Assembly: GCA_035352955.1 (NCBI GenBank)
Contig: DAOPYQ010000001.1
Span: forward strand, 37,536 to 101,535
Source of the DNA: Candidatus Omnitrophota bacterium
Lineage (GTDB): Bacteria; Omnitrophota; Omnitrophia; Omnitrophales; Aquincolibacteriaceae
Direction: 5' to 3'
DNA length: 64,000 bases
Part shown: piece by piece, positions 30,001 to 33,000 of the stretch
Layout: the number at the start of each line of letters is the position of its first letter
Position numbering within the stretch: position 1 is the stretch's first letter
Made by a program: the position numbers

Positions 30001-33000
30001 AGGTCCTTTGCCCTCGATCCCGACAAGGTGCTCCGTTTCATCGCCACGCTCAACAGCGTGAAAGCGCAAAAAGTCGTCGATCCGGCCGGCAAAGATTACG
30101 GTCTCGAAAAACCGGCCTGGGAGATCGCCGTGACCGAGGGTGAGCGCGAGACGGTCCTCAGCCTTGGCGCCAAGGACGAAAAGACTAGCAGCTATTTTGT
30201 GAAGATCTCCGCCGTTCCCGCCATTTTCCAGCTGAGCGCCTATTATGCCGAGGACCTCCAGATCGACGATTCCCGTTTTATGAAAGAAGCTCCGAAAGAA
30301 AATCCTCCGGTCGCTGCTCCGGCGAAGCTCTGATGAAACCCTATCTCGATCTTCTCCGGCACATCCTTGAGCATGGCGTTGAAAAAAAAGACCGTACCGG
30401 CACCGGGACCGTCAGCACGTTCGGCTATCAGATGCGCTTTGATCTCGCCAAGGGGTTCCCTCTCGTCACCACAAAAAAAGTCCATCTCAAGTCCGTCCTC
30501 TATGAACTGTTGTGGCTCCTCAAGGGCGATACCAACATCCAATATTTGAAAGACAACGGTGTCACGATCTGGAATGAGTGGGCGGACGCGAAGGGAGACC
30601 TGGGGCCGGTCTATGGAGCGCAGTGGCGTTCCTGGGAAAAACCGGACGGGACCGCCGTAGACCAGATCGCGCAAGCGGTCGAGATGATCCAAAAGAACCC
30701 CGACAGCCGGCGCATCATCGTGAGCGCGTGGAACGTCGGGGAGATCGAAAAGATGGCGCTTCCGCCGTGTCACACGTTCTTCCAGTTCTACGTCGCGGAC
30801 GGAAAACTTTCCTGCCAGCTTTATCAGCGGAGCGCCGATGTGTTCCTGGGCGTGCCGTTCAATATCGCGTCTTATGCGCTCCTCACGATGATGATGGCTC
30901 AGGTGACGGGCACCCGCCTCGGGGAATTCGTGCATACGTTCGGGGATGTCCATATTTATTCCAATCACAAAGAACAGGTGGCCCTGCAGTTGTCCCGCGA
31001 GCCGCGCCCGCTGCCGCGGATGAAGCTCAACCCGGCGGTCAAAAGTATTTTTGATTTCAAGTTCGAGGATTTCACGATCGAGGGGTATGACCCGCACCCG
31101 GCCATCAAGGCGCCGGTTGCCGTTTAAAGACAGCGCATTGTTGCGCGAAATATCAGGAGGTTTCATGCTTTTTCATATCGTAGCTGTTGCAAACAACCGC
31201 GTGATCGGGACCGGGAACCAGCTCCCGTGGCATTTCTCGAACGATCTTCAGCATTTCAAGAAGACGACGAGCGGGCAAACCGTGATCATGGGGCTCCGGA
31301 CGTTCGAAAGCCTCGGATGTAAAGCTCTGCCGAAACGGACGAACTTTATTCTCGATCACACCGGCGCAAAGCCTTACCCGAACCAGACGTTTTTTTCCAC
31401 CGTGGACGAGGCTCTGAAGAATGTCCGGACCGAGCACGCGTTCATCATTGGCGGCGCCCAGCTGTACCGGACCACGATCGACCGTGTGGACGGGATCTAC
31501 CTGACCCGCATTCACGCCGATTTCAACGGGGACGTCTATTACCCCGAGATCCCCGCGGCATTCGCGGAAAAATCCCGCAGCAAGCTGCAGGACAACCCGT
31601 TGCTTGAAGTGATCTATTATGAGAAAGCCCCCAAGAAGGTTTGCCGCTGTTGTGGCTGAGACGTCACTGTATTTTAAACAGTTCAGCGTCGGCTATATGC
31701 AAAACTTCGCGTATCTGATCGGGGACAAGAAGACGAAGGAATGCGTGATGGTGGATCCGGCGTGGGACGTCGACGCGATCCTGAAAGAGGCGAAAGCGGA
31801 CGGGATGAAGGTCGTGGCCGGGATCCTGACGCACACGCACTTTGACCATTGCAACGGCGTGGAGCAGCTGGTCGAAAAGACCGGCGTAAAGATCTACGTC
31901 CACGAAAACGAAGCCAAGTACATCAAAGAGATCAAAAACCACCTTGTCGAGACGAAGGAAGGGTCCACGCTGAAGATCGGTTCGGTGGAAATGACATTCC
32001 TTCACACCCCCGGCCATACGGAAGGCTCCCAGTGCATCCTGGTGGAAGGGAAACTTGTTTCGGGGGACACCCTTTTTGCCGGGGCCTGCGGCCGTTGCGA
32101 TCTTCCGGGCGGTGACGAAAGAAAGATGCAGGCGAGTCTGAAGCGGCTTGCGGCCCTGGATCCGGAACTCGAGGTCTATCCCGGACACGCCTACAATGAC
32201 GTCGAGTTCTCCACGATCGGCCATGAACGGCGCACGAATCCCTTCATGCATTTTCAAAACTAAAGAATCAAAATTGAAAAAGTAAAACCACAATTTAAAA
32301 TTCAAAACGCTTTGGTCTGTGGTTTTGATCTTTGCCTTTTAAATTTTGAGATAGCAGTCTATGGAAGATTTCAGCATCAATAAAGAGGAAGAGGCATTCC
32401 GGCTGATGCGGGAAGCCTATGACCAGCAGATGGCCGGCAAGGTCGATGAAGCGATCGAACTCGCCCGCAAGTCGATCGAACTCCACGCCACCGCGGAGGC
32501 ACATACGCTGCTCGGATGGACGTACAGCTGCAAGGGACGCTACGGCGACGCGATCCGGGAATGTGAAAAAGCGGTCCGGCTGGATCCGGATTACGGTAAC
32601 CCCTGCAATGATATCGGGGCGTATTTAATTGAGACCGGACGATGGGACGATGCGCTTCCCTGGCTTGAAAAGGCCACAGCCGCCGAGCGGTACGACGGAC
32701 GGTTTTATGCCTGGTACAACCTGGGCCGGGTTTGGGAGCATAAAGGGGATTGGGCCGAGGCCCTGAACGCCTATCGGCATGCCGTCGAGCTCAATCCGGA
32801 GTATTCCCTGGCCGCCAAGGCCGTGAGCCGGATGGAAGCGATGCTAAATTAGATTTCAAAGTTTAAAAGGCAAAGATCAAAACCACAGACCAAAGCGATT
32901 TGAATTTTTAATTGTGGTTTTGATCTTTCAGATTTGATCTCTACGCTAAGTTTTTAGCGACGAAATCCCAATTCACCAATTCCCAGAACTTTTCCACGTA

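What the first reader, a model, noticed from the sequence alone, without database searches (positions are those of the whole stretch)
32285..32922. A TPR-protein gene bracketed by near-perfect ~57-bp inverted repeats. Candidate invertible (phase-variable) cassette, or a paired REP-like terminator element.
Left arm 32285-32340 and right arm 32866-32922 are reverse complements (about 2 mismatches). Each arm also contains its own 8-bp-stem hairpin (AAACCACA…TGTGGTTT). The arms enclose exactly one gene (32361-32852) that would be co-transcribed with the upstream MBL hydrolase in the present orientation and antisense after inversion. No recombinase gene is in the window, so inversion would require a trans-acting enzyme. 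Alternatively, these are two oppositely inserted copies of a small palindromic repeat acting as bidirectional terminators between convergent units (sodA converges from the right).
Basis: seen in the sequence. Interest (0 to 1): 0.6.

Follow-up and report, generated by a model that had tools for sequence, protein, structure and literature searches.

The report
Paired palindromic spacer repeats, not a switch
The inverted repeats around this small TPR gene are real, but they are most likely two copies of a short hairpin-forming repeat lodged in the gaps between genes in an uncultured Omnitrophota bacterium, not a DNA switch that flips the gene.

Summary
Arms 32267-32352 and 32853-32938 are 86 nt and 90% complementary, the longest inverted repeat in the window. 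They fill both spacers around one TPR gene.

The invertible-cassette reading is not supported. In ten related Omnitrophota populations the order thyA-folA-MBL-TPR> <sodA and the TPR orientation are identical. The TPR gene diverges in step with its neighbours. Two relatives have spacers too short to hold arms. No recombinase was found among the window ORFs scanned.

The arms belong to a clade-wide class of fast-turnover palindromic spacer elements with 7-nt periodicity. Only five segments in 64 kb show it, and all are spacers: both arms and three atp-operon spacers. One family (GGATGG type) is demonstrably dispersed across loci and species. Same-family copies flank the TPR gene independently in other species, in direct or palindromic orientation, and flank atpG here.

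The best reading is two copies of a REP/MITE-like hairpin element, the right one recent. A function as co-transcribed RNA hairpins is inferred, not shown.

The source genome was not reached by either collection scan, so genome-wide copy number of this element is untested, and no reads were available. The element class seems undescribed, so interest is modest.

The parts
32267..32352 (.). Left arm: an 86-nt AT-rich imperfect palindrome with 7-nt periodicity. It fills the MBL-TPR spacer. Its inner hairpin is degraded to about 10 bp (32284-32292 / 32318-32326).
   Evidence: A homologous spacer lies upstream of the TPR gene in relative L016 (0 of 1000 dinucleotide shuffles reach the observed score).
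32853..32938 (.). Right arm: the inverted copy of the same element. It fills the TPR-sodA spacer from stop codon to stop codon.
32872..32928 (.). Local hairpin inside the right arm: a perfect 16-bp stem (17 pairs in the RNA fold) with a 25-nt loop.
   Evidence: I2. RNA -24.9 kcal/mol on the + strand and -26.1 on the - strand, z -3.8 and -4.8. DNA z -4.3.
32361..32852 (+). Enclosed gene: a 163-aa TPR protein. It is a conserved single-copy member of the thyA-folA-MBL-TPR gene string in Omnitrophota.
   Evidence: In one search it falls below every NCBIfam equivalog cut-off, so it is a generic TPR protein.
31652..32263 (+). Upstream MBL-fold (GloB-like) hydrolase gene. In relative L011 it lies 5 nt from the TPR gene, so the two are presumably co-transcribed.
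32941..33519 (-). Convergent Fe/Mn superoxide dismutase gene (sodA).
32274..32301 (+). Sigma-70-like promoter match (TTGAAA-16-TAAAAT, 10 of 12) inside the left arm, facing the TPR gene. It may be chance in AT-rich DNA.
   Evidence: 1 site found against 2.1 expected in shuffles, so it is not significant on its own
37479..37551 (.). Same class, different family (GGATGG type): a heptamer-periodic hairpin in the atpA-atpG spacer.
36528..36598 (.). GGATGG-type heptamer-periodic hairpin in the atpG-atpD spacer. With 37479-37551 it brackets atpG, in direct orientation.
35019..35106 (.). Heptamer-periodic hairpin (GGGNCAC units) in the atpD-atpC spacer.
24400..24472 (.). Third GGATGG-family copy in the window, in the NUDIX-ArsC spacer.
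   Evidence: (D7)

Best explanation
The two arms are two copies of one roughly 86-nt, AT-rich, end-to-end imperfectly palindromic spacer element. They belong to a class of rapidly turning-over hairpin elements with 7-nt periodicity that occupy intergenic and intercistronic spacers in this Omnitrophota clade. This class is REP/REPIN- or MITE-like in behaviour. The TPR gene between them is an ordinary, vertically inherited member of the thyA-folA-MBL-TPR string, so bracketing is a by-product of elements lodging in two adjacent tiny spacers. The left copy is probably the older one, because a homologous spacer sits at the same place in relative L016. The right copy is probably a recent inverted copy, 95% identical over its central 66 nt. 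That ordering is inferred, not shown. Shown here: the elements are insertions or deletions relative to relatives, the class exists, at least one family of it is dispersed across loci and species, and gene orientation is fixed. Inferred: once transcribed, the elements act as RNA hairpins that modulate the operon transcript. Possible effects are a 3'-end barrier or weak termination between the convergent TPR and sodA genes, partial uncoupling of MBL and TPR, and possible occlusion of the region just upstream of the TPR start codon. They do not act as recombination sites.
For: Class membership: across the whole 64-kb window only five segments have strong lag-7 autocorrelation, and all are spacers. 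They are the two arms and the three consecutive atp-operon spacers. Lag 7 is the best lag in 26 of 31 spacer hairpins across 8 species, against 5.5% of background windows.

Dispersed family: a GGATGG-type profile finds 3 copies in the window (24400, 36528, 37479), 2 each in L035 and L036 at the TPR flanks, and 1 in L016 at another locus that was not used to build the profile (E about 1e-11).

Relation of the arms to a dispersed type: the apex of the arms (ACCACAGACCAAAGC / GCTTTGGTCT) matches GACCACA-type hairpins in other spacers of L016, L036 and L035 (0-2 of 500 shuffles each).

Insertion/deletion behaviour: L011 has 5-nt and 32-nt spacers, and L041 has a 17-nt spacer on the left and a canonical GC-rich terminator on the right. 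L011 and L037 are 94.8% identical in protein, yet L037 has its own palindrome on both flanks and L011 has none.

Recurrent same-family flanking with unrelated sequences: window inverted 127, L036 direct 73, L037 83/77, against null maxima of 24-26. atpG in the window is likewise bracketed.

Fixed orientation and vertical descent of the TPR gene.

Tolerance inside operons: elements lie between atpA/G/D/C and between the two transketolase halves.

No recombinase or transposase in the scanned ORFs. No Rfam family. No match in the phage or plasmid collections.
Against: For this particular AT-rich sequence only two copies are known in the source organism, and they are adjacent. A profile search finds no others in 64 kb, which only bounds the genome-wide number at roughly fewer than 100. 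Neither public collection scan returned the source locus, and all their hits were chance matches, so dispersal of this family is unproven. No target-site duplication, conserved terminal tetranucleotide, RAYT gene or parent IS was identified. The similarity to the GACCACA type is short (14-33 nt) and comes from multiple tests. Same-family copies on both flanks of one gene in at least three species may call for more than random colonisation. Compensatory covariation in the GGATGG family is weak. No transcript data exist, so every functional statement is inference.
Confidence: 0.62

Rival explanations
1. Long-range RNA clamp. In the operon transcript the two arms pair with each other into a roughly 90-bp duplex that closes off the TPR cistron. 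A double-strand-specific RNase such as RNase III would cut it, excising or destabilising the TPR message. This resembles the processing stems that flank rRNAs and rRNA intervening sequences.
For: The minimum-free-energy and centroid folds of 32255-32950 pair the arms along their whole length (-295 kcal/mol, z -11.8). Same-family sequences flank the TPR gene in several species with unrelated sequences, a kind of element-level co-variation. In L035 a PF05635 (IVP) ORF sits exactly between inverted heptamer arms. That is the layout I recall for rRNA intervening sequences (my own knowledge, not tested here).
Against: Any 86-nt inverted repeat must give this fold, so the fold is not independent evidence. 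The pairs in L036 and around atpG are direct repeats, L016, L038 and L039 have unrelated flanks, and L011 and L041 have none, so long-range complementarity is not conserved. The right arm's strong local hairpin would form first during transcription, and ribosomes translate the intervening ORF. No transcript data are available.
Confidence: 0.12
2. Locus-native regulatory hairpins, not repeat elements. The left arm would be the TPR gene's own 5' regulatory or attenuator region, and the right arm a bidirectional terminator for the TPR gene and sodA that happens to have been copied from it by local gene conversion.
For: The left spacer is homologous between the window and L016, with the 16 nt TTTTAAATTTTGAGAT identical at the same 8-nt distance from the ATG. 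Other relatives have canonical bidirectional terminators in the TPR-sodA spacer (L016, L041). On the sodA strand the right-arm hairpin is followed by a U-rich tail.
Against: The terminator scan calls neither arm: the stems are AU-rich and the loop is 25 nt. Spacer content differs completely among species of similar divergence and is absent in L011. The arms share the 7-nt periodicity and apex motif of elements at unrelated loci.
Confidence: 0.15
3. Programmed invertible cassette (phase variation), in which a trans-encoded invertase flips the TPR gene between the arms.
For: A long, near-perfect inverted repeat brackets exactly one gene. The 36-nt perfect run could also allow rare RecA-dependent inversion.
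Against: Only one orientation appears in every assembly of this population that could be inspected, and no contig breaks at the arms. Orientation is conserved in ten species with or without repeats. Paired elements in L036 and around atpG are direct. No recombinase was found among the window ORFs scanned. The arms fill the spacers completely and carry no promoter whose inversion would switch expression, and inversion would merely silence an operon gene.
Confidence: 0.04
4. Composite mobile unit: two MITE-like copies mobilise the TPR gene as a cassette.
For: The architecture resembles MITE-flanked composite elements (my own knowledge of such elements; not tested here).
Against: The TPR gene is at the same place, in the same orientation, in all ten species, and its divergence tracks that of its neighbours. 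No target-site duplication is evident.
Confidence: 0.02

Closest known systems
REP / REPIN elements (repetitive extragenic palindromes, RAYT-mobilised; PMC3116915, PMC3337134)
   Same: Short imperfect palindromes confined to extragenic spacers. Families are lineage-specific and dispersed (shown here for the GGATGG type). They occur in either orientation, are tolerated inside operons, and have long hairpin-forming units of about 70-100 nt, like REPINs.
   Different: No RAYT gene or conserved terminal motif was identified. The arms have a 7-nt internal periodicity that I do not know to be described for REPs. Copy number of the AT-rich family is unknown, with only 2 copies seen.
MITE-like palindromic elements that are co-transcribed and processed (Neisseria Correia elements, enterobacterial ERIC/IRU). 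This comparison rests on my own knowledge and was not checked in the literature here.
   Same: Elements of about 100 nt that are palindromic end to end, inserted next to genes, transcribed with them, and able to fold into long RNA hairpins. Presence/absence polymorphism occurs between close relatives.
   Different: No target-site duplication or defined terminal inverted repeat plus parent IS was found. The sequence families are unrelated.
Intergenic heptamer direct repeats of Beggiatoaceae, Cyanobacteria and Bacteroidetes (TAACTGA repeats, PMC4679880; Nostoc heptamer repeats, bioRxiv 10.1101/2022.06.06.494920; cyanobacterial STRR, from my own knowledge)
   Same: A 7-nt unit, an intergenic location, frequent placement within a few nucleotides of the downstream start codon, species-specific units, and unknown function.
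   Different: Those are tandem direct arrays that are almost never inverted (1 of 170 sets in PMC4679880). Here each array is followed by its complement and forms a hairpin, and the units are degenerate.
Invertons (phase-variable invertible DNA segments)
   Same: An inverted repeat brackets a defined segment.
   Different: No recombinase was found, no second orientation was seen, orientation is conserved across species, the arms are self-palindromic repeat elements, and homologous pairs elsewhere are direct.
rRNA intervening sequences carrying PF05635 (IVP) ORFs. This comparison rests on my own knowledge.
   Same: A small ORF is bracketed by complementary arms that could form a long processing stem. 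Relatives carry IVP ORFs inside heptamer hairpins in this very operon (L035).
   Different: The bracketed gene here is a conserved TPR gene in an mRNA operon, each arm is itself a complete palindrome, and no processing has been shown.

Membership tests
Inverton / phase-variable invertible cassette | Inverted repeats flank the invertible segment | tested here: met
   86 nt, 90% complementary
Inverton / phase-variable invertible cassette | Both orientations are present in the population | tested here: not met
   Only one orientation appears in the inspected assemblies of the same population, which are 100% identical. This is assembly-level evidence only; raw reads were not available.
Inverton / phase-variable invertible cassette | A site-specific recombinase (tyrosine or serine invertase) is associated | tested here: not met
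   None was found among the 27 window ORFs scanned with Pfam. The remaining ORFs lie in the atp operon and the region downstream of it and were not scanned. A trans-acting enzyme elsewhere in the genome cannot be excluded.
Inverton / phase-variable invertible cassette | The repeats and switch architecture are conserved in relatives that keep the locus | tested here: not met
   Relatives have no spacer elements, unrelated elements, or direct-orientation elements around the same gene
REP / REPIN | An imperfect palindrome restricted to extragenic space | tested here: met
   Both arms exactly fill their spacers. All lag-7 periodic segments in the window are spacers.
REP / REPIN | Many dispersed copies in one genome | tested here: inconclusive
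   The AT-rich family has 2 copies in 64 kb and none found elsewhere. The source locus was not returned by either collection scan. The sister GGATGG family has 3 dispersed copies in the window plus copies at other loci in 3 species.
REP / REPIN | A cognate RAYT (IS200/IS605-like Y1 transposase) flanked by the repeats | not testable with these tools
MITE | Terminal inverted repeats | tested here: met
   The element is palindromic to its ends (outer stem TCAAAATT / AATTTTGA)
MITE | A target-site duplication flanks each copy | tested here: not met
   No shared direct repeat occurs at the boundaries of either copy. The boundaries are only defined to within 1-2 nt.
Intrinsic (bidirectional) terminator | A GC-rich stem with a short loop, followed by a U tract | tested here: not met
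   Neither arm is called by the consensus scan. The stem has 5 GC pairs of 16 and a 25-nt loop. A U-rich tail is present only on the sodA strand.
Heptamer direct-repeat arrays (TAACTGA / STRR type) | 7-nt periodicity in intergenic DNA | tested here: met
   Lag-7 z is 4.6 and 4.3 for the arms. Lag 7 is the best lag in 26 of 31 spacer hairpins, against 5.5% of background windows.
Heptamer direct-repeat arrays (TAACTGA / STRR type) | Tandem direct copies of one defined heptamer, not inverted | tested here: not met
   The arrays are degenerate and are followed by their complement to form hairpins. In PMC4679880 only 1 of 170 sets is inverted.
IVS-like long-range processing stem | Complementary sequences flank the unit and are predicted to pair | tested here: met
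   although this follows trivially from the inverted repeat
IVS-like long-range processing stem | RNase III cleavage of the stem in vivo | not testable with these tools
   No transcript data

The most novel reading that the evidence does not exclude
These Omnitrophota harbour an undescribed system of heptamer-periodic palindromic elements that spread preferentially into neighbouring spacers, so that genes become bracketed by same-family copies. Bracketing pairs would form long dsRNA clamps that excise or tune single cistrons out of operon transcripts, an IVS-like form of mRNA processing. The PF05635 (IVP) ORFs found inside such hairpins in relatives would be the ORF-carrying form of the same element.
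Probability: 0.1. Interest if true: 0.65.

Novelty: new variant of a known kind. Interest (0 to 1): 0.35.

Why it matters
As a phase-variation candidate it does not hold up, which removes a false lead. The analysis does show that an uncultured PVC-group lineage carries a distinctive class of intergenic hairpin repeats. They have 7-nt periodicity, turn over quickly between species, sit inside essential operons, often occupy both sides of the same gene, and sometimes carry an IVP ORF in the loop. If these elements affect mRNA processing or translation initiation, they would be a lineage-wide layer of post-transcriptional control. They would also link two poorly understood phenomena, heptamer repeats and REP-like palindromes. 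They matter practically too, because long inverted copies like this pair can mislead inverton-finding pipelines and break or mis-join metagenome assemblies.

Tried and rejected
- **Genome and metagenome scans.** I scanned both collections with the hairpin core AAAACCACA-N15-45-TGTGGTTTTGATC. They gave 7 and 18 single hits in unrelated taxa. None resembled the element beyond the pattern itself, and the source locus was not recovered.
- **Rfam.** At a permissive threshold there were only three sub-threshold chance matches.
- **Phage and plasmid collections.** No match.
- **Profile search for more copies of the AT-rich element.** None was found in the window or the related loci. The L016 E-value from that call was circular, because L016 was in the model. 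I replaced it with an independent shuffle test.
- **Cassette-swap hypothesis.** I tested whether the TPR gene plus its flanks had been exchanged horizontally. Per-gene identities rule this out.
- **Integron attC-like reading of the L037 palindrome.** I considered it and dropped it, because the core sites do not fit the consensus I recall and the synteny is fixed.
- **Covariation test on eight GGATGG-family copies.** Inconclusive: few compensatory pairs, and 7-nt register slippage blurs the alignment.
- **Extending the source genome beyond the window.** The look-up failed because no gene with exactly that product is on record. One relative (P0006) had gene calls but no DNA.
- **Literature.** Searches found no description of such elements in Omnitrophota.
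Full report
**1. The observation**

Arms 32267-32352 and 32853-32938 are 86 nt long, 90% complementary and 500 nt apart. It is the longest inverted repeat in the 64-kb window by a wide margin; the next is 34 nt at 74%. A local alignment scores 127 in inverted orientation and 32 in direct orientation, against a shuffle maximum of 26.

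Each arm is AT-rich (GC 25-31% locally, against about 52% overall) and is itself an imperfect palindrome from end to end. The right arm contains a perfect 16-bp stem (17 pairs in the RNA fold) with a 25-nt loop (RNA -25 to -26 kcal/mol, z -3.8 to -4.8). The left arm retains only about 10 bp of that stem and does not fold better than shuffles.

The arms enclose exactly one ORF, a 163-aa TPR protein. They fill their spacers precisely. The left arm lies 3 nt after the MBL stop and 8 nt before the TPR ATG. The right arm lies between the TPR and sodA stop codons. Within the window the core 16-mer occurs only in these two elements, and a profile search finds no third copy.

**2. Source and context**

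The identical TPR protein is encoded on eight contigs, including a Candidatus Omnitrophota MAG (GCA_035403665.1) and two JGI metagenomes. Three places were shown. They have the same gene order and orientation and are 100% identical to the window across the region.

The neighbourhood is thyA, folA, an MBL-fold (GloB-like) hydrolase and the TPR gene on one strand, with sodA converging, followed by the atp operon on the opposite strand.

**3. Comparative test of the switch idea**

I retrieved the locus from nine further Omnitrophota populations whose TPR proteins are 75-81% identical: L011/13, L014/15, L016, L035, L036, L037, L038, L039/40 and L041. For a tenth, P0006, only gene calls were available and no DNA. 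In all of them the order and orientation thyA-folA-(IVP)-MBL-TPR> <sodA are the same.

Nucleotide identity of the TPR gene tracks that of thyA, folA, MBL and sodA for every pair of species. The gene is therefore inherited vertically with its neighbours and is not a swapped or mobile cassette.

The spacers, by contrast, differ completely:
- L011 has spacers of 5 and 32 nt.
- L041 has 17 nt on the left and a canonical GC-rich bidirectional terminator on the right.
- The other species carry hairpins of unrelated sequence.

L011 and L037 are 94.8% identical in concatenated ThyA+TPR+SodA. Yet L037 has a perfect roughly 45-nt palindrome on both flanks of the TPR gene and L011 has neither. The difference lies exactly between stop and start codons.

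No recombinase or transposase was found among the 27 window ORFs scanned. Nothing here behaves like a switch. The orientation is fixed over a depth of evolution in which the repeats themselves come and go.

**4. What the arms are**

The spacers of these genomes are populated by long hairpins whose arms are built from degenerate tandem 7-nt units followed by their complements. Examples of the units are GACCACA/GACTACA, GGGACTC, GGACTGA, GGATGGC, GTGATAA and ACAACGG.

Lag 7 is the best autocorrelation lag in 26 of 31 spacer segments examined, including both window arms (z = 4.6 and 4.3). As a control I scanned the whole window. Only 5.5% of 80-nt windows have lag 7 as their best lag, and only five segments pass z >= 3.8. 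All five are spacers: the two TPR arms and the three consecutive spacers atpA-atpG, atpG-atpD and atpD-atpC. A further hairpin with 8-nt periodicity lies between the two transketolase half-genes.

At least one family is demonstrably a dispersed repeat. A profile of the GGATGG type finds:
- three copies in the window: the NUDIX-ArsC spacer and both flanks of atpG;
- two each in L035 and L036, where they are the two TPR flanks;
- one at a different locus in L016 that was not part of the model (E about 1e-11).

The window's AT-rich arms share their apex (ACCACAGACCAAAGC / GCTTTGGTCT) with GACCACA-type hairpins in other spacers of L016, L036 and L035 (0-2 of 500 shuffles each). The spacer upstream of the TPR gene in L016 is homologous to the window element (0 of 1000 dinucleotide shuffles). 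L016 has only that one copy, and it is degenerate. The left copy is therefore probably the older one. The right copy, 95% identical over its central 66 nt with a 36-nt perfect run, is probably a recent inverted copy.

**5. Same-family elements on both sides of a gene recur**

This pattern is clear in the window (inverted), L036 (direct) and L037 (palindromic). It is marginal in L014 and L035, and absent in L016, L038 and L039. It also holds for atpG in the window, in direct orientation.

Because the orientation varies, the recurring feature is 'the same element in adjacent spacers', not 'complementary arms'. That fits local spread of repeat elements, or permissive neighbouring sites, better than a requirement for inversion or for long-range pairing. 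Whether the frequency exceeds chance needs whole genomes. Within the window, the seven spacers that carry such hairpins give 3 adjacent pairs among about 60 spacers, where about 0.7 would be expected. This is my own rough estimate.

**6. How it probably works**

What is shown is the following:
- The elements are insertion/deletion polymorphisms in tiny spacers.
- They are hairpin-forming.
- They are tolerated between genes that must be co-expressed: ATP synthase alpha, gamma, beta and epsilon, and the two transketolase halves.

They therefore cannot be efficient terminators as a class, and the canonical terminator scan does not call either arm.

My inference is that they are co-transcribed and act as RNA hairpins. 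At the convergent TPR/sodA junction the strong right-arm hairpin would give a 3'-end barrier or weak bidirectional termination. It has a U-rich tail on the sodA strand. In the MBL-TPR spacer the element would partly uncouple the two cistrons. Its 3' end lies 8 nt from the ATG, so it may affect initiation. This echoes the position of the heptamer direct repeats described in Beggiatoaceae (PMC4679880).

The sigma-70-like match inside the left arm (TTGAAA-16-TAAAAT) is not significant in AT-rich DNA.

Thermodynamically the two arms would pair into a roughly 90-bp duplex closing off the TPR cistron, which would be a plausible RNase III substrate. This follows automatically from any long inverted repeat and is not conserved in relatives, so I keep it as a minority rival.

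**7. Comparison with known systems**

The closest behavioural analogues are REP/REPIN elements and co-transcribed MITE-like palindromes. The 7-nt periodicity recalls the intergenic heptamer direct repeats of cyanobacteria, Beggiatoaceae and Bacteroidetes, but those are direct arrays rather than hairpins (PMC4679880; bioRxiv 10.1101/2022.06.06.494920).

Membership of REP/REPIN cannot be claimed. No RAYT was found, no terminal motif was identified, and genome-wide copy number is untested for this family. Membership of MITEs fails on target-site duplication. Membership of invertons fails on three of four defining features. Literature searches found no description of such elements in Omnitrophota.

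**8. Limits**

Sixty-four kilobases without a third copy only bounds the total at roughly fewer than 100. No reads or transcripts were available. Covariation support for the hairpins is weak.

**9. Verdict**

The switch interpretation is not supported. The arms are a locally duplicated member of an apparently undescribed heptamer-periodic class of REP-like spacer hairpins. I rate it a new variant of a known kind, of modest interest.

Noticed in passing
window 35019-35106, 36480-36612, 37460-37574: All three intercistronic spacers of the atp operon (atpA-atpG, atpG-atpD, atpD-atpC, on the minus strand) carry heptamer-periodic hairpins. The two flanking atpG belong to the GGATGG family, which flanks the TPR gene in relatives L035 and L036. 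Each ends within roughly 2-30 nt of the downstream start codon.
   Followed up: partly
window 21039-21125: An AT-rich hairpin built from 8-nt units (AGTATCAA / AGTGTCAA / GGTATCAG ...) lies in the spacer between the N-terminal and C-terminal transketolase half-genes (20228-21046 and 21139-22080).
   Followed up: partly
L035 1456-1891 (compare L039 405-505): An uncalled 125-aa PF05635-type (23S rRNA IVP, four-helix-bundle) ORF, 37% identical to the L011 IVP (E 3e-19), sits exactly between inverted GGACTGA-heptamer arms (25 nt, 88% complementary). L039 has an intact ORF-less hairpin of the same heptamer type. This suggests that IVP ORFs reside in the loops of these hairpins, as I recall for rRNA intervening sequences.
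   Followed up: partly
L011 3020-3370, L016 2919-3269: An IVP (PF05635) gene is present between folA and MBL in some relatives (L011/L013, L016, L035) and absent in the window, L014, L036, L037, L038 and L041. This is a presence/absence polymorphism inside the conserved operon. tblastn finds no IVP-type gene in the window.
   Followed up: partly
window 7271-7570 and 16375-16674 (also 7588-7623/16692-16727 and 7778-7814/16882-16918): A 300-nt direct repeat at 94% identity, with further identical stretches, lies 9.1 kb apart inside two paralogous GDSL-lipase genes (7156-8247 and 16371-17351) of a glycosyltransferase-rich cluster. This indicates a recent duplication or gene conversion.
   Followed up: no
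window 455-760: Tandem 21-nt and 63-nt periodic repeats lie inside the first ORF (28-1101, no Pfam match). They encode a repetitive A/E/Q/K-rich segment.
   Followed up: no
L011 5368-8495, L013 5368-8495, L016 6852-8495: Giant ORFs (called products of 4,558-8,784 aa, with helicase and Cas3-like C-terminal Pfam hits in L011/L013) start just beyond sodA in some relatives. The window has small membrane proteins and the atp operon there instead.
   Followed up: no
L036 3076-3651: The sodA gene of L036 is much more divergent from all the others (66-72% nt) than its neighbouring genes are (thyA, folA and MBL up to 83-87% to L011/L037). This suggests replacement or accelerated evolution of that one gene.
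   Followed up: no
window 31652-32263: The MBL-fold hydrolase upstream of the TPR gene has a weak precomputed hit to PF23023 (Anti-Pycsar Apyc1) besides Lactamase_B. By NCBIfam it is GloB-like but below the cut-off. The folA and MBL reading frames overlap by 8 nt.
   Followed up: no
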